From a virus, in the IMG/VR virus record IMGVR_UViG_3300020421_002453, positions 9,097 through 73,096 of that record: a stretch of 64,000 bases of DNA, one strand, 5' to 3'. This document shows positions 8,238 through 62,964 of this stretch, one piece after another (positions within the stretch are counted from its first letter, which is position 1; each line of letters begins with the position of its first letter). The notes under the pieces are model-generated. The model was not told the origin of the DNA. It worked only from the letters and a program-made list of their open reading frames with translations, and made no database searches. The position numbers and the translations under genes are program-made.

Positions 8238-9583
8238 ATTGGGATAAAATATTAAACGAATTAAGTTACATTATTAAAGATGGAAGTCCAGACTTGACTA
8301 ATGAACAACATCTTATTAAATTATGGGATATTTTAAAAGAACATAATTGGAGTGTTGAGGCAAGAGTGGAATTATTAAATAACTTATCAGGTACTAAAAT
8401 AGAAGAACCGATAGTGGAAGCTAAAGGTGATACATCTGCAACTACATTTTATCACGAAGTAATGACTGGTATATTAGTTGGTGGTGGTAATAGTTCGTTT
8501 AAAGATGGTGAAGAGGTTGGAAAGTTTTTTAAGAATGGAACTATAAAGGCGGTAAATGCTGGATTAGGAACAGTCAAACCAGATGGTTCGGCTTGGGAAA
8601 GATTCTTACAAAAAGACTCAATACCAAAATCAGCATTAGTTTCAGATGCAAAAAACTTATCTACAAGAGTTAAAAAAGAGTTGGGTAAGGGTAAGAATAT
8701 GATGTGGACTGGCCCAACAAATGATGGTTCTAAATTTGGAGCTGCTGATATTGCTGGTAACTTTAGTGGTTATGGTGATGTTGGTATATCATTAAAGGCT
8801 GGAGTTGGACAATTAAAGAATTTAACATTAGGTACTTTTACAAAAATATTAGGAATGCCTGAGTTAAAAGGTGCTGAATTTATAAAGAAATATAATAAAA
8901 ACTTTAACTCAATGACCAAAGATTGGATGAAGTTAGTAGAGAAGTTATTTAATTCATTAACAAAAGATAAAGAAGCACAGAAGATATTTAAAAGACATTC
9001 AAAATCATCTTGGGATGCATATCAAAAAGAAATATTAAAAGAAGATGAATTGAATATATTATCAGAGGCAGTTGGATTTCCTAAACAAAAGTATTCTGCA
9101 AAAACAAAAAAGTTTAAATACTTCTGTAGAAAACTTCAAGAAAAACATCATCCACAATGGAAAGATTGGCAGGTAAAAAGAGGTAAACATTTCAACGATA
9201 TATTTTCAGAATTGTTTTCTAAAGAAGAAAATAATATTAGAATGAACTTGAGTACTCTATTTAAAAGACAATTAAGTGTAGGAGATACAAGTTTATTTTA
9301 TGCCGCTAAAGGTGGTAAAACATTTTGGTTTATACCAAGTGAGAAACTCTATGATAAACAAATGGGGCCAGATAAGTTTATTGCCGATTATGAACTACAA
9401 GAATCACAGGCTGGATACAAATTTTTATTAGATGTTGGTACACAAGAGATGGGTGGTATCGGTACTATTATTATTGAGATTAGATTTTCTACAGGACAAA
9501 TGGATGGAGCACCATCAGTAAAATCAAGTTACAAATTAGTAACCAAAGATTGGTCTGGATTATTGGGGGCCTTTAGGAGATAA
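8234..9583 (+). CDS. Hypothetical protein, possible PD-(D/E)xK restriction-endonuclease-like domain
   Basis: TFYHE...ADIAG...GISLK spacing fits the E...D...SxK nuclease variant; a separate ~60-aa N-terminal segment ends in IVEA. Confidence 0.4.
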   Translation: MNWDKILNELSYIIKDGSPDLTNEQHLIKLWDILKEHNWSVEARVELLNNLSGTKIEEPIVEAKGDTSATTFYHEVMTGILVGGGNSSFKDGEEVGKFFKNGTIKAVNAGLGTVKPDGSAWERFLQKDSIPKSALVSDAKNLSTRVKKELGKGKNMMWTGPTNDGSKFGAADIAGNFSGYGDVGISLKAGVGQLKNLTLGTFTKILGMPELKGAEFIKKYNKNFNSMTKDWMKLVEKLFNSLTKDKEAQKIFKRHSKSSWDAYQKEILKEDELNILSEAVGFPKQKYSAKTKKFKYFCRKLQEKHHPQWKDWQVKRGKHFNDIFSELFSKEENNIRMNLSTLFKRQLSVGDTSLFYAAKGGKTFWFIPSEKLYDKQMGPDKFIADYELQESQAGYKFLLDVGTQEMGGIGTIIIEIRFSTGQMDGAPSVKSSYKLVTKDWSGLLGAFRR

Positions 9584-9584
9584 C

Positions 9585-9998
9585 ATGAGAACACAATTAC
9601 TATGTACATTCACAAGGGTTCCAAAATTAAATGAAATAATAGATGTTATTGTATCATGCAATGATATTCTATTTGATAAGATATATGTTTTTAGTAACCA
9701 AAATGACCCAACACAATTAATGTGTACTTACAATGTTGAGTTTATGGATAACTTTGAAGAGAACATTGAGAACACTATATCGTTACACAGAAAGAAACAA
9801 TCAAATACACTCTATACAATCAACGCATTGAATGAAGTTATCAGAGAAAAGAACGGTGGAGTTCTTGATAAATCATTTCAAGTAGATTGGTCAGAGTTTC
9901 AAAACACATTGATATTAACTGCTGAAAGTGGATTGAATATCATACCTACAAAAATACATCAAATTGTCGATGTAAACGACTGGCAAAAGAAAATTTAA
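9585..9998 (+). CDS. Hypothetical phage protein
   Basis: 137-aa ORF with AGGAG RBS; no function recognised. Confidence 0.7.
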   Translation: MRTQLLCTFTRVPKLNEIIDVIVSCNDILFDKIYVFSNQNDPTQLMCTYNVEFMDNFEENIENTISLHRKKQSNTLYTINALNEVIREKNGGVLDKSFQVDWSEFQNTLILTAESGLNIIPTKIHQIVDVNDWQKKI

Positions 9999-10030
9999 AA
10001 AAAAATTAACTTTTTGCAAAATAAATGCTA

Positions 10031-10078
10031 TTTTGAGAATTTATATACATATATATTTATGTATCTAAAATGAGATAC
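10031..10078 (+). promoter_or_regulatory. Putative phage promoter (TTTTGAG...TATTTAT) followed by 5' hairpin GTATCT-N6-AGATAC
   Basis: TATTTAT at 10054-10060 recurs in several intergenic gaps; hairpin 10061-10078; the same promoter-plus-hairpin layout recurs at 10627-10656. Confidence 0.5.
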
Positions 10079-10093
10079 AAAGTTTTTTGAAAA

Positions 10094-10502
10094 TTGAGAA
10101 ATCGGAAAGTACTGAGAGTAATTAACTCGGTATGGGATTGGCTGAATAATGAGTATACTTCGGAAGCTCATAAGGCAATCACAGATTAGTTCGTGGTGAA
10201 CCTACTTAGGTGTAAATCATTTCGGTAGTTGAGACATCAATAATCAGAAGTACTTGAAGAAAAAAACAGAAACGATTCTGTTGACCTTGTTGTGGGTAAG
10301 GGTAATACTGAAATCCCACTTAATGACTGAATAAACTAAACTCTGAGAGTTAAAGTAATGGCATAGAGGTTGTACTCGATTCAATGAGATTAACCATCTT
10401 GAGAATCACTTTCATAACTGAAAGATGTTAGGTACAAGGTATAAAAAATCAGAGCTTCAAGTTGTAAGTAATCGTTAACCTTACATCCCCTAAGATTTCC
10501 AA
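10094..10502 (+). ncRNA. Putative large structured non-coding RNA (~410 nt), family not recognised
   Basis: No ORF-track call in the 700-nt gap. Many stems: 10098-103/10494-99, 10110-16/10126-32, 10136-40/10176-80, 10149-53/10167-71, 10184-88/10241-45, 10252-59/10455-62, 10265-71/10276-82, 10284-90/10434-40, 10292-96/10315-19, 10409-14/10419-24, 10463-68/10480-85. Bounded by a promoter-like motif and a terminator-like hairpin. Confidence 0.7.
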
Positions 10503-10514
10503 TTAAAAATTTAT

Positions 10515-10587
10515 AAAAAAAAGGTTCAACCGTATTTTTAGTTTCCACTATATTAAAACTTTAAAAAACAACCGAACCTTTTTTTTT
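10515..10587. terminator. Long imperfect hairpin with A/T tracts; probable bidirectional intrinsic terminator
   Basis: AAAAAAAAGGTTC (10515-27) pairs with GAACCTTTTTTTT (10574-86); inner AGTTT/AAACT stem. Confidence 0.55.
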
Positions 10588-10626
10588 GCAAAAGGCAAGA
10601 AAAAATTGATTTTAATCAATCAAGGT

Positions 10627-10656
10627 TATATTTATTAATGTATCGATAAATGATAC
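10627..10656 (+). promoter_or_regulatory. Putative promoter (TATATTTAT) with GTATC-N7-GATAC hairpin upstream of the SSB gene
   Basis: Same layout as 10052-10078. Confidence 0.45.
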
Positions 10657-10701
10657 GAATGATAAATGAATAATAAAACTAAACAAATAGGAGAATGAAT
10701 A

Positions 10702-11466
10702 ATGGATTTAAATGCAATTAAAAAGCGACTTAATCAGTTACAAACCACAAACAATCGTACTTCCAGTCTTTGGAAACCACAACCAGGTAAAACACAAATT
10801 CGAATAGTACCTTATGCTTTCAATAAAGATAATCCTTTTATTGAATTATTCTTCCATTACAATCTGAACAATCGTTCATATCTTTCACCAATTTCTTTTG
10901 GTAGACCAGACCCAATCGAGGAGTTTGCTCAAAAACTAAAAGGAAGTGGTTCTAAGGAAGATTATCAATTAGCTCGTAAGTTAGAAGCTAAGATGAGAAC
11001 TTTTGCACCAGTCATTGTAAGAGGAGAAGAAAAACAAGGTGTTAAATTTTGGGGATTTGGAAAGACAGTTTATCAAGAACTTCTTTCAATAATCGCTGAC
11101 CCTGATTATGGTGATATCACAGATGCAGTAAATGGTCGTGATGTAGTTGTTGAGTTCTTATCAGCAGAAGAGACGGGAGCATCGTTTCCTACAACAAAAA
11201 TCCGAGTAAAACCTAATCAAACACCGATTTCAGATGAACCTGAAACTCTTGAATTGGTTAAAACCCAACAAGATATTAAGGAAATCTATCAAGAGTTATC
11301 TTATGATGACCTTACAGATATTCTGAATGAGTGGTTGAATCCAAGTGATGATAACACAGATGGTGAAACTACTACTTCTAAAGAAGAAGTTTCTAAAACT
11401 GAACTATCAAATGCTAAAGTGAAGAGTAATACTTCAGATGCCTTTGATGAATTGTTTAATTCATAA
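10702..11466 (+). CDS. gp32: Single-stranded DNA-binding protein (T4 gp32-like)
   Basis: WKP..G...IRIVP, GVKFWGFGKTVY, DYGDITD...GRD; acidic C-terminal tail DAFDELFNS; upstream of uvsX. Confidence 0.85.
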   Translation: MDLNAIKKRLNQLQTTNNRTSSLWKPQPGKTQIRIVPYAFNKDNPFIELFFHYNLNNRSYLSPISFGRPDPIEEFAQKLKGSGSKEDYQLARKLEAKMRTFAPVIVRGEEKQGVKFWGFGKTVYQELLSIIADPDYGDITDAVNGRDVVVEFLSAEETGASFPTTKIRVKPNQTPISDEPETLELVKTQQDIKEIYQELSYDDLTDILNEWLNPSDDNTDGETTTSKEEVSKTELSNAKVKSNTSDAFDELFNS

Positions 11467-11479
11467 ATAATAACAATAT

Positions 11480-11545
11480 ATAGTGTGTGGCAACATACAA
11501 GAAAAGTAGAGATGGGTGTTATTGTATTCCCTAACTACACACTAT
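11480..11545 (+). other. Intergenic structured RNA element
   Basis: ATAGTGTGTGG/CTACACACTAT 11-bp closing stem (one G-U) encloses an ATACAA/TTGTAT stem; no U-tract. Confidence 0.5.
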
Positions 11546-11566
11546 TATTAACTTAAGGAGATTAGG

Positions 11567-12667
11567 ATGGCATCAGTAAATGATGTATTGGCCTCAAATT
11601 TGGCCGATAGTTTAAATAAAAAATTCAAAGATAACAAGGTAGCATACTTTTTAGATGGTACTGATAACACACCTACTGATATAAAAGATTTTATATCCAC
11701 AGGTAGTTCTATGTTAGATTTGGCTATATCAAATAAACCTGATGGTGGTATCGCCGTAGGTAGAATCACAGAAATCAACGGATTAGAATCAAGTGGTAAA
11801 TCACTACTTGGGGCTCATATGTTGGCAGAAACTCAAAAGAAAGGTGGAATCGCAGTATATATAGATACTGAAACTTCAGTTTCTCAAGAGTTCATGGATG
11901 TGATTGGAATTGATATGAGTAAGATGTTATATCTACATTTAGAAACTGTAGAAGATATCTTTGAAGCGATTGAAGAAATCGTAACCAAAGTAAGAGAATC
12001 AGATAAAGATAGATTAGTTACTATATTAGTTGATTCACTTGCAGCCGCTACTACTAAAGTAGAGTTAGAAGCAGATTTTGATAAAGATGGTTGGGCAACA
12101 GCCAAGGCCATTATTATATCTAAAGCTATGAGAAAGATTACTCAGATGATTGGTAGACAGAAAATAGCCTTAGTATTTACAAATCAGTTAAGACAAAAAT
12201 TAGGTGTAATGTTTGGAGACCCCTGGACTACAAGTGGTGGAAAGGCATTACCATTCCATGCTTCAACAAGAATTAGATTGAAGAACATGGGACAAATCAA
12301 AGATACGGCAAAGAATGTTCTTGGTATGAAGTGTAGAGCACAGATTGTTAAGAATAGATTAGGGCCACCTTTACGACATGCAGATTATGATATGTACTTT
12401 GATAGAGGTATAGATAATTATGGTGCATGGTTGACTGTGTTGAAAGAACACAAGTTAGTTAAATCAGGTGGTGCATGGTACACTCTTACAGACCAAGATG
12501 GTAAAGACCATAAGTTCCTATCGAAAGATTGGGAAGAGTTAATTACCAAAAATGATGAGTTGAGAGAGTATGTATACAAAATCATTTGTGATAAAGTTAT
12601 ATTGAAATACAAAGAGAAACTTGGTATTGATGATGTAGAATTCACAGATGAGGTTATCGGTGATTAA
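11567..12667 (+). CDS. uvsX: RecA/UvsX recombinase
   Basis: ISTGS..LD, GRITEING.ESSGKS Walker A, YIDTE, VDSLAA, NQLR.K.GVMFGDP.TTSGG.AL.F.A. Confidence 0.95.
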   Translation: MASVNDVLASNLADSLNKKFKDNKVAYFLDGTDNTPTDIKDFISTGSSMLDLAISNKPDGGIAVGRITEINGLESSGKSLLGAHMLAETQKKGGIAVYIDTETSVSQEFMDVIGIDMSKMLYLHLETVEDIFEAIEEIVTKVRESDKDRLVTILVDSLAAATTKVELEADFDKDGWATAKAIIISKAMRKITQMIGRQKIALVFTNQLRQKLGVMFGDPWTTSGGKALPFHASTRIRLKNMGQIKDTAKNVLGMKCRAQIVKNRLGPPLRHADYDMYFDRGIDNYGAWLTVLKEHKLVKSGGAWYTLTDQDGKDHKFLSKDWEELITKNDELREYVYKIICDKVILKYKEKLGIDDVEFTDEVIGD

Positions 12668-13715
12668 TAAGAGACACTTATCGATACTCGAAGAGATTAA
12701 AAAATCTGGCGGTAAAGTAGATAGTGGTGAACCAAATGACTCGGTTTTACTTATTGACGGATTGAACACATTCATACGAGTGTTTTCAGCCATACCTACT
12801 ACTAATGAGGATGGAATTCACATTGGTGGAATAGTAGGTTTTTTAAGGTCAATTGGTTACACAATCAACATGGTTAGACCTACACGAACTATCATAGTAT
12901 TTGATGGTAAAGGTGGGTCTAACCGCCGAAGAAAACTTTTTCCTGAATATAAAGCAGGAAGAAAAATGTCAGTTAGATTGAATCGACACTTAGATGTTTC
13001 ACTTACAAGAGAAGATGAACACAAGATGATGATTCGTCAATTGAATCGAGTAATAGAATACCTTGAATGTTTACCATTAACATTAATGAACATTGAAAAT
13101 GTAGAAGCAGATGATGTTATTGGTTATGCAGCTAAGCATGTATTTAATGATAAGGTTACAATTATGTCAACCGATAAAGACTTTCTTCAGTTGGTGGATG
13201 ATAGAATACAAGTTTATTCACCAACGAAAAAGTTGATGTATGATGAAGAAAGAATTGTGAATGAATATGGAATTAATTCAAAGAATTTCTTATTGTTCAG
13301 AGCTATAGATGGTGATAAATCAGATGGGATACCAGGTATAAAAGGTGCTGGATTAAAAACACTACTGAAAGTATTTCCATTCCTTGAATCACCACACGAA
13401 TATTCTATAGAAGATATTATGAAGAGTTCAAAAGCGAACCAAAAAAAATACAAAATATGTGAAACTATTGTAAATAATGAAGACCAATTACTTTTAAATA
13501 AAAAACTAATGGACTTAACCGATAGTGTTATGGGTGGTAGTAGTAGACAAAAAACTCAACACATAACAGGAGAACCAATTCAGAGATTAGTTAAACACAA
13601 ATTTCAAAGGATGTTCTTAGAGGATAAATTATACACTGCCTTACCAAACTTAGATAGTTGGTTACATTCAACATTCAATAGGTTGAATCACATGGCGGAG
13701 AAGAGTCATGGGTAG
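12648..13715 (+). CDS. rnh: 5'-3' exonuclease / flap endonuclease (T4 RNase H-like)
   Basis: LLIDG.N, VFDG, RRKLFPEYKAGR, EADDVIG, STDKDFLQL, GDKSDGIPGIKG.G.K. Confidence 0.92.
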   Translation: MRLSVINKRHLSILEEIKKSGGKVDSGEPNDSVLLIDGLNTFIRVFSAIPTTNEDGIHIGGIVGFLRSIGYTINMVRPTRTIIVFDGKGGSNRRRKLFPEYKAGRKMSVRLNRHLDVSLTREDEHKMMIRQLNRVIEYLECLPLTLMNIENVEADDVIGYAAKHVFNDKVTIMSTDKDFLQLVDDRIQVYSPTKKLMYDEERIVNEYGINSKNFLLFRAIDGDKSDGIPGIKGAGLKTLLKVFPFLESPHEYSIEDIMKSSKANQKKYKICETIVNNEDQLLLNKKLMDLTDSVMGGSSRQKTQHITGEPIQRLVKHKFQRMFLEDKLYTALPNLDSWLHSTFNRLNHMAEKSHG

Positions 13716-18645: not shown

Positions 18646-18679
18646 CCTGGCAGGCGACACACCAGGATAAAAATGTGTC
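18646..18679 (+). promoter_or_regulatory. H-type RNA pseudoknot in the leader of the TonB-dependent receptor gene
   Basis: Stem 1 CCTGG(18646-50)/CCAGG(18662-66); stem 2 GACACA(18656-61)/TGTGTC(18674-79); loop 3 ATAAAAA. GC-rich patch in an AT-rich genome. Confidence 0.6.
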
Positions 18680-18707
18680 ATTCACAAGTAACAACAAGGA
18701 GATGATT

Positions 18708-21437
18708 ATGAATAAATATCGTAATCTGTTATCATCAGTGCTTATGATGACTGGACTGTTCGCACAGTCAATAGTCGGAGTAATAACTGATGTGGACTCA
18801 AATCCACTTGGAGGAGCTAACATTGTAGTTAACGGAACAGACTTAGGAGGAGTATCAGATAATACTGGTGCCTTTTCTATCAAAGTTGATTCTGGAACAT
18901 ATGATGTAACAGCTTCTTACATTGGTTTCTCATCAATAACTAAATCAGTTGTTGTTGAGAAAAGTGCTACACTCGACTTCGTTTTAGAAGTTAGTTTTGT
19001 AGGACTATCAGATGTTGAGGTGTTAGCATCTCGTGCATCTGAAACTACACCTGTTGCTTACACTAATGTTAGTAAAGAAGAAATGGAAGTGAGATTAGGT
19101 TCTCAAGATATTCCAATGATTCTTAACACAACACCAAGTGTATATGCAACTCAACAAGGTGGTGGTGCGGGTGATGCTCGTATCAACATTCGTGGTTTCA
19201 ATCAAAGAAATGTTGCAGTGATGATTAATGGTGTTCCCCAAAATGATATGGAGAACGGATGGGTTTATTGGTCTAATTGGGATGGTGTAGGTGATGCTAC
19301 ATCTTCAATTCAGGTTCAAAGAGGTCTATCAGCTGTTAATCTTGCTACACCTTCTATTGGTGGAACAATGAATATTATTACCGACCCTACATCTTTTGAA
19401 AAGGGTGGAAAGTTCAAACAAGAAGCTGGTGATGGTGGTTTTCTAAAAACTACTTTTAACTACAATACTGGTCTTATTTTAAATGACAAGTTAGCTTTAA
19501 GTGGAACTATTGTTCGTAAAACTGGTGATGGAATAATCGATGGAACTTGGACTGATGCTTGGGCATACTACTTCGGTGGTTCATATGCTGTAAGTAATAA
19601 ACAAAGGTTCGAGTTATATGCAATCGGTGCTCCACAACGACATGGACAAAATCTATACAAACAGAATATCGCTACTTACTCACAAGAGTTGGCTGGTGAT
19701 GTAGACGGATATGATACTGATGCTTTTGCAGAAGGTAACAAATTCGAAACTGAAGCTGGTAGATTTTTCAATCAGAATGTCGCACCTATTGACCCATCTT
19801 ATACAGGTAAACAATATTGGTATATGTATGGTGCAAGAACAACAGATAGATTCAACAAGAACTTCTTGAACGAAAGAGAAAACTTCTTCCATAAACCATT
19901 AGTGAACTTAAATCACTTCTTAGAAATAAACGATAAGATGGGTATCTCATCTATTGCTTATTGGAGTGGTGGTTCAGGTGGTGGAACTGGTACATATGGT
20001 AGTGTATCAAGAACACCAGCGGTTGAGGGAGAAAGATGGTATGCAAGTTCACCGTGGGCTTGGGATTGGAATGCTGAGATTGCTCAAAATTCTGATAACA
20101 TCGATGAAAACTTCTCTGTAGATGAAAATCGTTCAACAGGAATTCTTAGAAACTCTATCAATCGACAAGATACCTATGGATTAATTTCTAAATTAAATTA
20201 TTCAGTTAATGATAACTTAGAAATACAAACAGGTATTGATTGGAGAACTGCTCGTATCGAACATGCTCGTGAAGTTAGAGATTTGTTAGGTGGAGATTAC
20301 TATGTTGATTATGCTGATGACAATTTCGAGGACGGAAAAGTAGTTGGACTCGGAGATATAATCGCTTATCATAACGAAACAACTGTAGACTGGATTGGTG
20401 GTTTCTTACAAGGTAACTATACATCAGAAAAACTAAACCTATATGGTATGGGTGGAGTTTCTTCTATTAAATATAGTTATCAAGACCACTTCACAGTAGC
20501 AGATGAAGTAATTACAGCTGACCCTATTTCTACTTATCAAGTAAAGGGTGGTGCATTATATAATGTAAATGAGAATCTTGGAGTATTCATTAATAGTGGA
20601 TATGTTCAAAAGGCTCCTATCTTAGATAATGTAATCTACTACGATGGTGTAGTAGCTACCGACCCCGATAATGAGAAATTCTTACACAATGAACTTGGTG
20701 CCAACTTTGGTACTGAGAAATTTGGTGTTAGAGTTAGTGCATACAACACAGATTGGAAAGATAGAAACTTGACTAAATCAGTACAGACTGGTCAAGGTGA
20801 TTCAGGTGATACTGATATTATCTTCCTAAAAGGTGTTAACCAAAACCATAAAGGACTTGAAATCGAAACTAAAGTAAAACCAAATGATATGGTTGAACTT
20901 GATTTCATTTATTCTTATGGTGATTGGAAGTTCGATGGTGATGCCGATGGTACTTACCAAGAACAAGAGTACAATGATGAGAACCAAGTAATTGGTATTC
21001 AGACCACAGATTACTCTTATGCACTTGATGGATTATATGTTGGTGATATGCCACAAACATCTTATATTTTAGGTGTTACACTTAAACCTGTTAAAGGATT
21101 AAGACTTCAGGCGTTATACAAAACATATGATAGAAATTATGCTGACTGGTCACCTGATTCTCGTGAGATTGAGGGTGATGCGGACAGAGCTCAAGTTTGG
21201 GAAGCTCCTGGCTATTCAAAACTTGATTTACATGCATCTTATAAACTTCCTATCAAGGGATATGACATTTCTTTAAATGCTCATCTATTCAATGCTCTTG
21301 ATGAAGTATTCGTACAAGATGCGGTTGACAACTCGAAATATAATGGGTGGGGTGATAAAGTTCATGCCGCACATAATGCTGAGGTATTCTTAGGAACACC
21401 AAGATATGCAAATATTGGAGTTTCTGTTAACTTCTAA
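18708..21437 (+). CDS. TonB-dependent outer-membrane receptor with N-terminal carboxypeptidase-regulatory-like domain
   Basis: Signal peptide ending LFAQ; G.ITD....PL.GANI.V.GT..G..SD..G.F; plug IRGF...NVAVMINGVP, IQVQRG...GGT.NIIT; C-terminal GVSVNF. Start moved to ATG 18708, after AAGGAG. Confidence 0.93.
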   Translation: MNKYRNLLSSVLMMTGLFAQSIVGVITDVDSNPLGGANIVVNGTDLGGVSDNTGAFSIKVDSGTYDVTASYIGFSSITKSVVVEKSATLDFVLEVSFVGLSDVEVLASRASETTPVAYTNVSKEEMEVRLGSQDIPMILNTTPSVYATQQGGGAGDARINIRGFNQRNVAVMINGVPQNDMENGWVYWSNWDGVGDATSSIQVQRGLSAVNLATPSIGGTMNIITDPTSFEKGGKFKQEAGDGGFLKTTFNYNTGLILNDKLALSGTIVRKTGDGIIDGTWTDAWAYYFGGSYAVSNKQRFELYAIGAPQRHGQNLYKQNIATYSQELAGDVDGYDTDAFAEGNKFETEAGRFFNQNVAPIDPSYTGKQYWYMYGARTTDRFNKNFLNERENFFHKPLVNLNHFLEINDKMGISSIAYWSGGSGGGTGTYGSVSRTPAVEGERWYASSPWAWDWNAEIAQNSDNIDENFSVDENRSTGILRNSINRQDTYGLISKLNYSVNDNLEIQTGIDWRTARIEHAREVRDLLGGDYYVDYADDNFEDGKVVGLGDIIAYHNETTVDWIGGFLQGNYTSEKLNLYGMGGVSSIKYSYQDHFTVADEVITADPISTYQVKGGALYNVNENLGVFINSGYVQKAPILDNVIYYDGVVATDPDNEKFLHNELGANFGTEKFGVRVSAYNTDWKDRNLTKSVQTGQGDSGDTDIIFLKGVNQNHKGLEIETKVKPNDMVELDFIYSYGDWKFDGDADGTYQEQEYNDENQVIGIQTTDYSYALDGLYVGDMPQTSYILGVTLKPVKGLRLQALYKTYDRNYADWSPDSREIEGDADRAQVWEAPGYSKLDLHASYKLPIKGYDISLNAHLFNALDEVFVQDAVDNSKYNGWGDKVHAAHNAEVFLGTPRYANIGVSVNF

Positions 21438-61697: not shown

Positions 61698-61711
61698 TTG
61701 CAAAAAAAGAC

Positions 61712-61740
61712 TTGACATTGGCGTGGATATGTGGTACTTT
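61712..61740 (+). promoter_or_regulatory. sigma70-like early promoter TTGACA-N17-TACTTT
   Basis: Preceded by the same AAAAGAC UP-like tract; TG extended -10. Confidence 0.65.
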
Positions 61741-61778
61741 ATAGTGTAATGATAATGATGATAAGGATGAATTAAGAT

Positions 61779-62003
61779 ATGGATATGGGAACTTTTGCTA
61801 TGGGTTGTATGAATTATGAATTAAATAGAGATACTGGTAATCTACCAGAACACGATATAGAGTTCCAAGCCGAAACAGGTATAGGGCCAACCTATTTAAA
61901 TGGTAGACCACAAACAAGAGAAGAGCAAAGAGAAGCTCTTGAAGAAGATGGAAGAATGACACCACAAGAGATAACAGAGTGGTTAGATTCTTTGGAAATG
62001 TAA
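61779..62003 (+). CDS. Small acidic hypothetical protein
   Basis: 74 aa, AAGGA RBS. Confidence 0.65.
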   Translation: MDMGTFAMGCMNYELNRDTGNLPEHDIEFQAETGIGPTYLNGRPQTREEQREALEEDGRMTPQEITEWLDSLEM

Positions 62004-62015
62004 AGGAGAAAAATT

Positions 62016-62240
62016 ATGGCTAAAGATGCTAAAAGATATTTTGTAAATGTAAGTTTAGAGATTTATGTACCAGACCAAGGTCTTGGGCCTCAATCTACTA
62101 AGAACGAGAACTCAGATGCTGAGTGGTTCGCTAATGAGGTATGTTCACAAATACCAAAGTTGGTAAATGAAGAGTTTAAATACTCAGAAAGACCATACTC
62201 TGTGAATTGGGCTCATAAGGGTGAAGTAGAAAGAGGATAA
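62016..62240 (+). CDS. Hypothetical protein
   Basis: 74 aa, AAGGAG RBS. Confidence 0.7.
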   Translation: MAKDAKRYFVNVSLEIYVPDQGLGPQSTKNENSDAEWFANEVCSQIPKLVNEEFKYSERPYSVNWAHKGEVERG

Positions 62241-62241
62241 T

Positions 62242-62331
62242 ATGGAATTACTACTTAGTTCGATTGTAATTTTATCTCAAGCGATTGCGATAATAATAAT
62301 CTTAGAATTTATAATTAATCAATTATTTTAA
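62242..62331 (+). CDS. Very small hydrophobic peptide (29 aa, not in ORF track)
   Basis: GAGGA RBS; MELLLSSIVILSQAIAIIIILEFIINQLF, a single TM helix. Confidence 0.45.
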   Translation: MELLLSSIVILSQAIAIIIILEFIINQLF

Positions 62332-62339
62332 AAAAAGAC

Positions 62340-62369
62340 TTGACTCATATAGTATTTTATGGGTATATT
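62340..62369 (+). promoter_or_regulatory. sigma70-like early promoter TTGACT-N18-TATATT
   Basis: Repeated consensus. Confidence 0.75.
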
Positions 62370-62374
62370 CATAT

Positions 62375-62587
62375 ATGATAAATAAGGAAAATATTATGAA
62401 GAAAATAAAACCAATACGAAAGAATAAAAAACATACACCAAAGAATGATATCGGTTATGGTACTAAGAAAGAGGCCTTGGCTGAGATTGGTATGGATAAT
62501 ACTGATTTTGATACATTGGATAATATGTTCGGTAATCCTATAGAAGAGTTTGATGATATCTTAGATGGGTTAGACTTACATGGATAA
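62375..62587 (+). CDS. Hypothetical protein (basic N-, acidic C-terminus)
   Basis: ORF behind the promoter; likely start ATG 62396 after AAGGA. Confidence 0.6.
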   Translation: MINKENIMKKIKPIRKNKKHTPKNDIGYGTKKEALAEIGMDNTDFDTLDNMFGNPIEEFDDILDGLDLHG

Positions 62588-62750
62588 TCCATTTAACTCA
62601 AACGACCCACTATGGGAAACATCCAAACATATGAATCCTGATATGATGTTAGTGATTATTGATATGGTAGAAGATTGGGTAGTGAATGAGAAACCAGATA
62701 TCAAAATGATGGATGTGTGTTTTCTAACAAATAACTTTGGGGTGGCGTGA
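62580..62750 (+). CDS. Small hypothetical protein (56 aa, not in ORF track)
   Basis: Overlaps both neighbours (GTGA coupling at the 3' end) and fills the gap. Confidence 0.55.
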   Translation: MDNPFNSNDPLWETSKHMNPDMMLVIIDMVEDWVVNEKPDIKMMDVCFLTNNFGVA

Positions 62751-62962
62751 TGAAAGAAATATTAGAACTAATTAATGAGATAGAATGTGAGTTAGATGAT
62801 TCAGTAAATTCTCTACCTGAGTACTCAAGTACTACAGATAGTAGGAGTTACATAGATGGTGCTCGTAATACACTATATGTGTTGAAAGAAAAAGTAGAGG
62901 AAATTGTAGAGAAAGCAAATGCTTTCGAAAAAGGTTTAGATTTATATAATAGGAATAATTAG
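62747..62962 (+). CDS. Hypothetical helical protein
   Basis: 71-aa ORF. Confidence 0.6.
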   Translation: MMKEILELINEIECELDDSVNSLPEYSSTTDSRSYIDGARNTLYVLKEKVEEIVEKANAFEKGLDLYNRNN

Positions 62963-62964
62963 AT

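What the first reader, a model, noticed from the sequence alone, without database searches (positions are those of the whole stretch)
10094..10502. Stand-alone ~410-nt highly structured RNA between a hypothetical gene and the SSB gene
Seen: the largest ORF-free gap in a dense genome, more G/C-rich than other spacers, with its own promoter-like motif and a downstream terminator. There is a closing helix (GAAATC 10098-103 / GATTTC 10494-99) and long-range helices ACTTGAAG/CTTCAAGT (10252-59/10455-62) and ACCTTGT/ACAAGGT (10284-90/10434-40). At least seven local stems are present, plus a crossing pair CTCTGA/TCAGAG (10341-46/10449-54) that would form a pseudoknot. It lacks tRNA or tmRNA ends and does not interrupt a gene. 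Known: large phage-associated ncRNAs of unclear function exist (GOLLD, ROOL). Inference: a multi-domain ncRNA, possibly a new class.
Basis: partly seen in the sequence, partly recalled or inferred. Interest (0 to 1): 0.82.

Follow-up and report, generated by a model that had tools for sequence, protein, structure and literature searches.

The report
Fused double manA phage RNA gene
The gene-free stretch before this marine phage's DNA-binding-protein gene encodes a real, intricately folded RNA of about 400 bases. It is not a new class: it is two copies of the known "manA" RNA fused into one interlocked chain.

Summary
93.2% of cells pair, against 35-42% in slid controls; 82 of 117 pairs change on both sides. 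Folding energy alone is not significant (z -1.32).

The RNA is not a new class. Rfam's manA model (RF01745) matches 10291-10489 at 61.2 bits (cut-off 55.2) and 10110-10322 at 39.9 bits.

The architecture is two manA cores in one chain:
- They share one closing helix.
- The strands of their long P8 hairpins are exchanged between the units.
- A covarying pseudoknot (10341-46/10449-54) and a newly found kissing loop (10272-75/10472-75) tie them together.

The element looks like a cassette of its own. It has a conserved leader hairpin, a boxA-like element, a closing stem and its own terminator with a covarying stem. It lies mostly, but not always, before the gp32-type SSB gene.

My best reading is a stand-alone structural RNA that works through RNA-RNA contacts, like the manA assemblies of a 2026 preprint. 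A riboswitch is not excluded.

I found no paper describing the double form. This scan has already noted the same architecture on at least six other genomes.

The parts
10030..10060 (+). Promoter-like module: A-rich tract, TTTG(A/G)G, then TATATTTAT at 10052-60
   Evidence: Conserved block in 19 distinct upstream regions. The same TATATTTAT-plus-hairpin module recurs before the SSB gene. Its function is inferred: the motif is not enriched in the window (6 found, 5.1 expected).
10061..10078 (+). Leader hairpin (GTATC...GATAC), in the position of boxB in an rrn-type leader
   Evidence: This pattern occurs at only two places in the window, here and at 10640-56. Homologs keep a hairpin of changing sequence at this place (by eye).
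10082..10094 (+). boxA-like element GTTYTTTGAMAAT directly before the closing stem
   Evidence: Present in 55 of 68 homologs with a full upstream flank. It is also kept where the cassette lies before other genes (L098, L102, L155). It resembles the E. coli rrn boxA plus spacer as printed in PMC2724277. No binding was tested.
10092..10103 (+). P0, 5' strand of the closing stem (pairs with 10494-10504, A10097 bulged)
   Evidence: Per-sequence duplex energies: cognate -8.48, non-cognate -6.68, shuffled -3.54 kcal/mol. The window pairing was read from the sequence.
10109..10133 (+). P1 hairpin; its loop carries the 6-nt palindrome TAATTA at 10119-24
   Evidence: 97.3% of cells paired, 3 of 8 pairs changed on both sides. 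The loop holds a perfect 6-nt palindrome in 55 of 69 sequences, as TAATTA or TTATAA.
10134..10138 (+). P2, 5' strand (GGGAU) of the single manA closing helix, pairing with AUCCC at 10485-89 across both units
   Evidence: 100% paired. 10 of 69 sequences carry the compensatory G-C to A-U change (helix 3). It aligns to the model's GGGaG/CuCCC helix.
10141..10176 (+). P3a: hairpin with the CUGAAUAA internal loop (unit A)
   Evidence: Outer helix 94.2% paired, 3 of 3 pairs covary. Inner helix 100% paired, 5 of 5 pairs covary. It aligns to the manA motif UGaCUGAAUAA.
10183..10246 (+). P4a multi-stem with hairpins P5a (loop GUGGUG), P6a (variable) and P7a (loop GACA)
   Evidence: Closing helix 95.9% paired, 6 of 6 pairs covary. 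P5a 98.0% and P7a 96.0% paired. P6a is 75-80% paired, with indels.
10252..10259 (+). P8 outer 5' strand of unit A, pairing with the P8 outer 3' strand of unit B (10455-62)
   Evidence: 96.2% paired, 6 of 8 pairs changed on both sides (helix 11). Within each unit the model's P8 outer pairs are flagged as non-pairs.
10266..10281 (+). P8a inner hairpin; its loop L8a (10272-75, ACGA) kisses L9b (10472-75, UCGU)
   Evidence: Found by a covariation scan of unpaired columns. 62 of 69 sequences are perfectly complementary, in five different variants. 99.3% paired, 3 of 4 pairs changed on both sides (helix 13).
10284..10290 (+). P8 outer 3' strand of unit A, pairing with the P8 outer 5' strand of unit B (10434-40)
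   Evidence: 95.2% paired, 5 of 7 pairs changed on both sides (helix 14).
10292..10319 (+). P9a hairpin (read as P1 of unit B by cmscan) with a near-invariant 18-nt loop
   Evidence: 100% paired, 2 of 5 pairs covary (helix 15). It aligns to the model's last hairpin when unit A is scanned alone. Loop variants are listed.
10326..10356 (+). P3b: second CUGAAUAA hairpin; its loop (10341-46) forms the pseudoknot with 10449-54
   Evidence: Outer and inner helices are 100% paired. The pseudoknot is 100% paired, with 3 of 6 pairs changed on both sides (helices 16-18).
10359..10430 (+). P4b multi-stem with hairpins P5b (loop GUUGUA), P6b (loop UAACCA) and P7b (loop AUAACU)
   Evidence: Closing helix 98.8% paired, 5 of 6 pairs covary. 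P5b 100%, P6b 82.6% and P7b 99.7% paired (helices 19-22).
10434..10462 (+). 3' strands of the two swapped helices (10434-40, 10455-62) and the pseudoknot partner (10449-54)
   Evidence: See helices 11, 14 and 18.
10464..10489 (+). P9b hairpin (10464-84, loop L9b) and the 3' strand of P2 (10485-89)
   Evidence: P9b is 100% paired, 3 of 5 pairs changed on both sides (helix 23).
10494..10504 (+). P0, 3' strand of the closing stem
   Evidence: as for 10092-10103.
10516..10587 (+). Terminator-like long hairpin (G/C core 10523-27/10574-78, invariant inner block 10534-48) followed by a run of nine T (10579-87)
   Evidence: Fold -16.5 kcal/mol, z -3.07. The stem shows compensatory changes by eye. The inner block TTTTAGTTTCCAC is within 260 nt in 48 of 67 homologs with room, also before genes other than SSB. 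The simple scan missed it because its loop exceeds 8 nt.
10606..10656 (+). Second promoter-like module (TATATTTAT at 10627-35) and hairpin (10640-56) in front of the SSB gene
   Evidence: Function inferred.
10702..11466 (+). Downstream gene: gp32-type single-strand DNA-binding protein (context, not part of the RNA)
   Evidence: Pfam PF08804 gp32, E 5.7e-13.

Best explanation
Window 10092-10504 is an RNA gene of its own. It encodes one chain of about 380-415 nt made of two manA-type cores (unit A about 10109-10319, unit B about 10326-10489).

Shown by covariation:
- The two units share a single closing helix (GGGAU 10134-38 with AUCCC 10485-89).
- The outer strands of their long P8 hairpins pair across the units instead of within them (10252-59 with 10455-62; 10284-90 with 10434-40).
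- The units are further tied by a pseudoknot (loop of P3b, 10341-46, with 10449-54) and by a kissing loop (L8a 10272-75 with L9b 10472-75).
- An outer stem (P0) closes the whole molecule.

Inferred:
- It is transcribed from its own promoter through a leader with a hairpin and a boxA-like element. That layout resembles ribosomal-RNA operons and would protect a long untranslated transcript.
- It ends at its own intrinsic terminator before the SSB gene, which has a promoter-like module of its own.
- It acts as a folded RNA in its own right, through RNA-RNA contacts. These are of the kinds that single manA RNAs use between molecules to build closed oligomers in vitro; here they are partly turned into contacts within one chain.
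- It does not act as a switch for the SSB gene.

What the particle does for the phage is not known.
For: Structure:
- 117 proposed pairs were counted on 69 distinct homologs. 93.2% of cells pair, 82 pairs change on both sides, and the covariation score is 0.489. Slid controls give 0.077-0.099, and 0 of 500 shuffles reach the observed values.

Family:
- manA RF01745 scores 61.2 bits for 10291-10489 and 39.9 bits for 10110-10322.
- Both units carry the CUGAAUAA loop and a three-hairpin junction.

Strand exchange:
- cmscan flags the P8 outer pairs as non-pairs inside each unit, while the cross pairs covary (helices 11 and 14).

Kissing loop:
- 62 of 69 sequences are perfectly complementary, in five variants.
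- In the Rfam consensus printed, L8 (aCUGu) and L9 (acAGu) are complementary, as are L5 (GUGGUG) and L7 (ACCA).
- This fits the L8-L9' and L5-L7' intermolecular kissing loops reported for manA assemblies (preprint 10.64898/2026.07.01.735769, sections 7 and 8 read).

Cassette:
- The boxA-like element is present in 55 of 68 homologs.
- The terminator block is present in 48 of 67 homologs.
- Both travel with the RNA where the next gene is not SSB: L102 has an Hsp20-like ORF, and L155 and L142 have other genes.

RNA libraries:
- Contigs of RNA libraries from four studies hold the RNA.
- Two whole contigs consist of it alone, without a mismatch: 373 nt = 10112-10484 and 384 nt = 10119-10491 plus 11 adaptor-like letters.
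- Contigs of relatives show compensatory changes at 10149/10171, 10152/10168 and 10335/10350.
Against: - No function was tested, and assembly of this RNA was not tested.
- The cage work is in vitro, on single manA RNAs, in a preprint whose figures and supplements I could not see. My mapping of its loop numbers onto the Rfam consensus is therefore an inference.
- manA was proposed as a riboswitch candidate lying in 5' UTRs (PMC2864571, passages read).
- In most loci with room the RNA does lie 150-250 nt before SSB on the same strand.
- In L098 and L172 no terminator follows, and an ORF starts within about 50 nt. That fits a cis role.
- L102's neighbour is an Hsp20/IbpA-like gene, one of the gene classes listed for manA in 2010.
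- The promoter and boxA motifs are not enriched in the window.
- Contigs cannot show transcript ends, strand or level, and an RNA library can hold DNA.
- Folding energy is not better than shuffles.
Confidence: 0.6

Rival explanations
1. Tandem-aptamer riboswitch. The two manA cores bind a metabolite, perhaps cooperatively, and control read-through of the 10516-10587 terminator into the SSB-RecA-exonuclease genes.
For: - manA is listed as a probable riboswitch in potential 5' UTRs of genes for nucleotide synthesis, ibpA chaperones and others (PMC2864571).
- The RNA lies before SSB on the same strand in most loci with room.
- L098 and L172 have no terminator between the RNA and the next ORF.
- L102 has an Hsp20-like gene downstream.
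- Many loop and junction nucleotides are invariant.
Against: - I found no alternative pairing between the RNA and the terminator. The RNA is closed by its own stem P0, about 12 nt before the terminator hairpin.
- The terminator stem, its T run and an invariant inner block travel with the RNA before unrelated genes.
- The SSB gene has its own copy of the promoter-like module and hairpin.
- No ligand for manA was found in the papers I could search.
- Single manA RNAs form defined assemblies without a ligand in vitro.
Confidence: 0.2
2. Protein-binding RNA. It would be a decoy or scaffold that binds a phage or host protein, for example the neighbouring SSB or RecA-type protein, or a host RNA-binding factor, rather than assembling with itself.
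For: - Synteny with SSB and RecA is stable.
- The 18-nt loop of P9a and several junctions are nearly invariant and have no pairing partner, as expected for recognition surfaces.
Against: - Nothing here points to a particular protein.
- The cassette also occurs away from SSB.
- Relatives noted by this scan lie among tRNA genes (unchecked notes).
Confidence: 0.15
3. Not an RNA: a conserved DNA element (origin, packaging or regulatory site) or a small-protein gene.
For: - The element lies at the head of a replication and recombination gene block.
- Folding energy is not significant.
Against: - 82 of 117 pairs show changes on both sides that keep pairing, including G-U pairs, which fit only the + strand RNA.
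- The minus strand folds at z -0.05.
- Only 8 of 69 homologs keep the 31-aa frame, and the longest ORF per homolog has a median of 42 aa.
- The covariance model matches the + strand only.
Confidence: 0.03

Closest known systems
manA RNA motif (Rfam RF01745; Weinberg et al. 2010, PMC2864571; assemblies in the preprint 10.64898/2026.07.01.735769)
   Same: - The covariance model matches above its cut-off.
- Shared parts: the CUGAAUAA internal-loop hairpin, the three-hairpin junction with a GUGGUG-type loop, the GGGAN/NUCCC closing helix, and a last hairpin whose loop is complementary to the loop of the long hairpin.
- Marine phage origin.
   Different: - Two cores sit in one chain of about 400 nt instead of one core of about 190 nt.
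- There is one shared closing helix.
- The P8 outer strands are exchanged between the units.
- The inner P8 hairpin of unit B is replaced by a single strand that forms a pseudoknot with loop L3b.
- There are an extra outer stem P0, a leader and a terminator of its own.
- Unit A alone scores below the family cut-off (39.9 against 55.2 bits).
Tandem glycine riboswitch (two aptamers in one leader that dock on each other); recalled, not tested here
   Same: Two homologous structured domains in one transcript, tied by inter-domain contacts, upstream of a gene.
   Different: - No ligand and no expression platform were found here.
- The two domains exchange helix strands and share a closing helix.
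- A terminator and a second promoter-like module separate the RNA from the gene.
Ribosomal RNA operon leader and processing stem (boxB hairpin, boxA, spacer; PMC2724277, passages read)
   Same: - The order is hairpin, then a U-rich boxA-like element, then an AAUU-type spacer, in front of a long untranslated structured RNA.
- The ends of the RNA pair with each other.
   Different: - Similarity to the E. coli sequence is partial. By my count, 10 of 17 letters match in the window and 13 of 17 in homologs such as L019.
- The host is unknown.
- Binding of Nus factors and processing of P0 were not tested.
GOLLD and ROOL large phage-associated RNAs
   Same: A large, ornate, phage-borne non-coding RNA of unknown function.
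   Different: There is no match to either model at gathering score in the window or at E up to 10 in 9900-10750. This RNA has a clear relative in manA.

Membership tests
manA RNA (RF01745) | Covariance-model score at or above the curated gathering score (55.2 bits) | tested here: met
   10291-10489 scores 61.2 bits over model positions 1-192. Unit A scanned alone (10110-10322) scores 39.9 bits, E 3e-09, below the cut-off.
manA RNA (RF01745) | Hairpin with the conserved internal loop UGaCUGAAUAA ... UAAgG | tested here: met
   Present twice (10139-10176 and 10324-10356). Both are aligned to the model with high posterior probability, and the helices covary (helices 4, 5, 16, 17).
manA RNA (RF01745) | Multi-stem junction with three hairpins, the first with a GUGGUG-type loop | tested here: met
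   Unit A: 10183-10246, loop (C/U)GUGGUG in 62 of 69 sequences. Unit B: 10359-10430, loop GUUGUA. All closing helices covary.
manA RNA (RF01745) | Closing helix GGGaG/CuCCC around each single core | tested here: inconclusive
   There is only one such helix (10134-38/10485-89), and it encloses both cores. It is 100% paired, with 10 compensatory cells. Neither unit has a closing helix of its own.
manA RNA (RF01745) | Long hairpin P8 formed within the unit | tested here: not met
   The outer P8 pairs are flagged as non-pairs inside unit A and unit B. The strands pair across the units instead (helices 11 and 14). This is why I file the RNA as a variant and not as two plain members.
manA RNA (RF01745) | Last hairpin P9, with a loop complementary to the P8 loop | tested here: met
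   L8a 10272-75 and L9b 10472-75 are complementary in 62 of 69 sequences and covary (helix 13). The Rfam consensus loops are complementary too (read).
manA RNA (RF01745) | Self-assembly into closed oligomers (preprint, in vitro) | not testable with these tools
   I read only sections 7, 8 and 13 of the preprint. There is no tool here for RNA complexes.
Riboswitch | Ligand-binding aptamer coupled to an expression platform whose pairing competes with the aptamer | tested here: inconclusive
   No competing pairing was seen by eye between 10092-10504 and the terminator 10516-10587. This was not searched exhaustively, and ligand binding cannot be tested here.
GOLLD / ROOL | Match to the Rfam covariance models | tested here: not met
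   No match at gathering score in the window or at E up to 10 in 9900-10750.

The most novel reading that the evidence does not exclude
The double manA would be a natural covalent dimer in which contacts that single manA RNAs make between molecules have been turned into contacts within one chain. These are the L8-L9 kissing loop, the L3-L8 pairing and the P8 helix itself. The remaining free loops are the palindromic P1 loop, L5/L7 and the invariant P9a loop. They would still join copies into a defined RNA-only particle that the phage makes during infection. That would be a genetically encoded RNA assembly with a biological role, and a living example of quaternary contacts becoming tertiary ones.
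Probability: 0.25. Interest if true: 0.75.

Novelty: new variant of a known kind. Interest (0 to 1): 0.5.

Why it matters
manA has been an orphan 'riboswitch candidate' since 2010, and a 2026 preprint reports that single manA RNAs build RNA-only cages in vitro.

- A conserved natural form shows which contacts selection keeps. In it two cores are fused, exchange helix strands, and make an L8-L9 kissing loop and an L3-L8 pairing. These are the contact types reported between molecules in the cages.
- It also gives a ready-made construct for structural work.
- Its cassette layout (own leader, closing stem, own terminator, occurrence before unrelated genes) argues that at least this branch of the family is a stand-alone RNA. 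That changes how manA hits in phage genomes should be annotated.
- For this genome it is a correct annotation of the largest gene-free gap.

Tried and rejected
- **Folding energy.** The + strand gives z -1.32 and the - strand z -0.05. This is not informative.
- **Phage GenBank collection.** A blastn of 9000-12700 found only a RecA-gene match in Microcystis phage Mel-JY01 and nothing for the RNA.
- **Motif-only loci.** The viral-contig scan with the P9a-loop pattern gave 85 distinct stretches besides the window's own. 68 aligned (64-93% identity). 17 did not, and they are chance matches inside coding sequence. I dropped them before the alignment.
- **Truncated matches.** Nine motif matches lay too near a contig end and were dropped.
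- **SSB loci without the RNA.** 20 of the 47 SSB loci that showed no DNA similarity to the RNA (L012 and L035-L080) were scanned with Rfam at gathering score. None has manA. The other 27 were not scanned.
- **Consensus scans.** 5 promoter-like sites were found where 5.1 are expected, and 0 terminators, because the real hairpin has a long loop. The patterns TATATTTAT, GTTYTTTGAMAAT and GTATC..GATAC are not enriched in the window.
- **Small-protein reading.** Rejected.
- **tRNA or tmRNA.** None.
- **Other loop-loop contacts.**
  - A scan of all loop pairs gave only L8a-L9b and a weak L1-L9b signal.
  - A possible L5a-L6b contact is a hint only. UGGU/ACCA is present in 62 of 69 sequences, and four sequences change both loops together.
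  - The palindromic P1 loop is likewise a hint only. A/T-only hexamers are palindromes one time in eight, and nine sequences replace the loop.
- **Parts without RNA-contig cover.** No laid contig of the four runs covers 9613-10109 or 10536-10606. The listed contig pieces that lie on the RNA start between 10112 and 10144 (X5, X1, X10, X8, table 8). Their 3' ends fall between 10484 and 10491. No DNA run was laid beside them, so this is not evidence of transcript ends, of processing at P0 or of absence of read-through.
- **Contig depths.** RNA 36-160 against SSB 4-43 in X1; higher on the RNA also in X5 and X10, but not in X8. These cannot rank genes, and I do not use them.
- **Supplements I could not see.** The supplements of Weinberg 2010 and of the preprint were not available. 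They may show tandem or enlarged manA forms, so 'not in print' rests only on full-text searches and on 0 occurrences of tandem, fused or nested in the preprint text.
Full report
**The locus.** The window is part of an IMG/VR virus record of 73,096 bases, estimated 34% complete. All ORFs of 150 aa or more lie on the + strand. The flagged stretch lies in a 703-nt gap (9999-10701).
- Upstream is a 137-aa ORF without a Pfam match.
- Downstream is a gp32-type single-strand DNA-binding protein gene (PF08804).
- That gene is followed by a RecA-type recombinase, a 5'-3' exonuclease, a methylase and a DnaB-like helicase.
- The only larger gap by my measure, 61698-62964, is filled with ORFs of 56-74 aa.
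- GC of 10094-10502 is 0.357, against 0.318 for the window.

- A protein-guided scan of viral contigs with the SSB gave 80 loci. L001 is the window's own contig. L003 to L034 (except L012) carry the whole gap at 68-88% identity.
- A DNA pattern from the most conserved loop brought more loci.
- After removing identical copies, nine truncated matches and 17 chance matches in coding sequence, 68 distinct homologs of 64-93% identity remained. They were aligned with the window (A1, 69 rows).
- On this alignment my structure of 117 pairs has 93.2% of cells paired. Shuffles give 77.4% (0 of 500 reach the observed value) and slid controls give 35.0-41.7%.
- 82 pairs change on both sides. The covariation score is 0.489, against 0.077-0.099 for slid controls.
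- The closing helix is misaligned in the A/T-rich ends (47.8%), but it passes a per-sequence test: -8.48 kcal/mol cognate, -6.68 non-cognate, -3.54 shuffled.
- No reading frame is kept: 8 of 69 homologs.

**What it is.** Rfam's manA model matches 10291-10489 at 61.2 bits (cut-off 55.2), over the whole model. The 5' half, scanned alone, also matches the whole model (10110-10322, 39.9 bits, E 3e-09). I number the helices P1 to P9 along the Rfam consensus: first hairpin, closing helix, CUGAAUAA hairpin, junction stem, three junction hairpins, long hairpin, last hairpin.
- Unit A holds P1 (10109-33), the 5' strand of P2, P3a, P4a with P5a-P7a, an inner P8 hairpin (10266-81) and a P9-like hairpin (10292-10319).
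- Unit B holds P3b, P4b with P5b-P7b, P9b (10464-84) and the 3' strand of P2.
- There is one P2 (10134-38 with 10485-89). It spans both units and shows a G-C to A-U change on both sides in 10 of 69 sequences.
- In both cmscan alignments the outer P8 pairs are marked as non-pairs within the unit. The 5' strand of unit A pairs with the 3' strand of unit B (10252-59/10455-62), and the 3' strand of unit A pairs with the 5' strand of unit B (10284-90/10434-40). Both pairings covary.
- As a secondary structure this equals 'one core nested in the long hairpin of the other', which was my first reading (note). The likeness of 10292-10319 to the model's last hairpin makes 'tandem units with exchanged P8 strands' the better description.
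- Unit B has no inner P8 hairpin. The single strand in its place (10449-54) pairs with the loop of P3b (10341-46). This is a true pseudoknot: 100% paired, 3 of 6 pairs changed on both sides.
- A scan of unpaired columns found one more contact: the P8a loop ACGA (10272-75) with UCGU in the P9b loop (10472-75). It is perfectly complementary in 62 of 69 sequences, in five variants, and 99.3% paired.

**Link to what is known.**
- Weinberg et al. 2010 described manA in marine metagenomes, T4-like cyanophages and two gamma-proteobacteria. [quoted passage not shown]
- Rfam corrected its structure in release 14.3 (PMC7779021, passages).
- A preprint of July 2026 reports cryo-EM structures in which single manA RNAs form a 60-mer cage, decamers and octamers. 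These are built through L5-L7', L8-L9' and L3-L8' kissing loops and a GNRA L6-P6' contact between molecules (10.64898/2026.07.01.735769; sections 7, 8 and 13 read).
- I could not see its figures. In the Rfam consensus, however, L8 and L9, and L5 and L7, are complementary, and the middle junction hairpin has a GAAA loop. So my numbering very probably equals theirs.
- If so, the two tertiary contacts found here are of the types L8-L9 and L3-L8. Here they can be made inside one chain.
- The preprint text does not mention tandem, fused or nested forms. Four full-text searches found no paper on a double manA.

**The surroundings.** The 19-sequence alignment of the whole gap shows this order:
1. An A-rich tract and a conserved TTTG(A/G)G ... 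TATAT block.
2. A small hairpin of changing sequence (10061-78 in the window).
3. The element GTTYTTTGAMAAT (10082-94), present in 55 of 68 homologs.
4. The RNA, closed by P0.
5. A long hairpin whose stem changes in a compensatory way, with an invariant inner block and a T run (10516-87). It folds at z -3.07, and the block is present in 48 of 67 homologs.
6. A second A-rich tract, a TATAT block and a hairpin (10606-56).
7. An A-rich leader with GGAG and the SSB start.

The hairpin-then-U-rich-element order, and part of the sequence, resemble the E. coli rrn leader (boxB hairpin, boxA, spacer) as printed in PMC2724277. I checked only the likeness, not the function.

**Synteny.**
- In most loci with room, the SSB gene follows 150-250 nt behind the aligned stretch.
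- In L143, L148, L190 and L192 another ORF lies between.
- In L098, L102, L155 and L172 no SSB follows within 2.7-4.7 kb. L142, with only 1.7 kb of room, also shows none.
- In L102 the next gene is Hsp20-like, by my reading of its sequence.
- In L098 and L172 there is no terminator, and an ORF starts within about 50 nt.
- The upstream neighbour varies widely.
- 20 SSB loci without DNA similarity have no manA.
- The RNA with its leader element and terminator therefore behaves as a cassette that usually, but not always, sits before SSB.

**RNA libraries.** 18 listed RNA runs of 7 studies hold part of the stretch. I laid contigs of four runs from four studies.
- All four hold the RNA.
- One contig of 373 nt equals 10112-10484, and one of 384 nt equals 10119-10491 plus 11 adaptor-like letters. 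Both are without a mismatch.
- Contigs of relatives carry changes on both sides of pairs 10149/10171, 10152/10168 and 10335/10350.
- Contigs cannot show ends, strand or level. The uncovered flanks and the depths are therefore listed only under Tried and rejected.

**How it most likely works.**
- *Shown:* the fold, its family, the strand exchange, the pseudoknot, the kissing loop and the cassette layout.
- *Inferred:* the transcript starts upstream of 10061 and ends at 10587. The RNA is a product in its own right. It acts through RNA-RNA contacts as manA assemblies do, with half of the contacts satisfied within the chain. The remaining conserved loops stay free for contacts between chains or with a partner: the palindromic P1 loop in 55 of 69 sequences, L5/L7 and the invariant P9a loop.
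- I give this reading 0.6, a riboswitch 0.2, a protein-binding RNA 0.15 and a non-RNA element 0.03.

**Novelty.** This is a new variant of a known kind. The same architecture has already been noted by this scan on at least six other genomes.

Noticed in passing
window 10606-10701: The SSB gene has its own copy of the TATATTTAT block plus a GTATC...GATAC hairpin (10640-56), followed by a 45-nt A-rich leader up to GGAG (10690-93). From memory, T4 gene 32 is autoregulated through a structured element plus an A/U-rich leader, so this leader, and not the big RNA, may be the SSB's own operator.
   Followed up: partly
window 10534-10548 (inside the terminator hairpin): The inner part of the terminator hairpin (ATTTTTAGTTTCCAC) is invariant in 19 of 19 aligned sequences, while the outer stem covaries. 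The block TTTTAGTTTCCAC follows the RNA in 48 of 67 homologs, even before other genes. That is more conservation than a terminator needs, and its role is unknown.
   Followed up: partly
window 10119-10124: The P1 loop holds a perfect 6-nt palindrome (TAATTA, or TTATAA in six sequences) in 55 of 69 homologs. The change between the two forms keeps self-complementarity, as in loops that dimerise by kissing. Nine sequences replace the loop with a G/C-rich extension.
   Followed up: partly
L102:2567-3040 and L098:2797-3345: In two relatives the same RNA cassette lies before other genes. L102 has an Hsp20/IbpA-like 157-aa ORF, a gene class listed for manA in 2010. L098 has a 182-aa ORF that starts within about 50 nt of the RNA, with no terminator between.
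   Followed up: partly
window 18675-21437: A 920-aa phage ORF has CarboxypepD_reg and TonB-dependent receptor Plug domains (Pfam). This outer-membrane receptor type is common in Bacteroidota, which may hint at the host. Earlier notes of the scan also flag it.
   Followed up: no
window 61698-62964: A 1.27-kb stretch has only small + strand ORFs (56-74 aa, five in a row). It has no Rfam match at gathering score and no tRNA.
   Followed up: no
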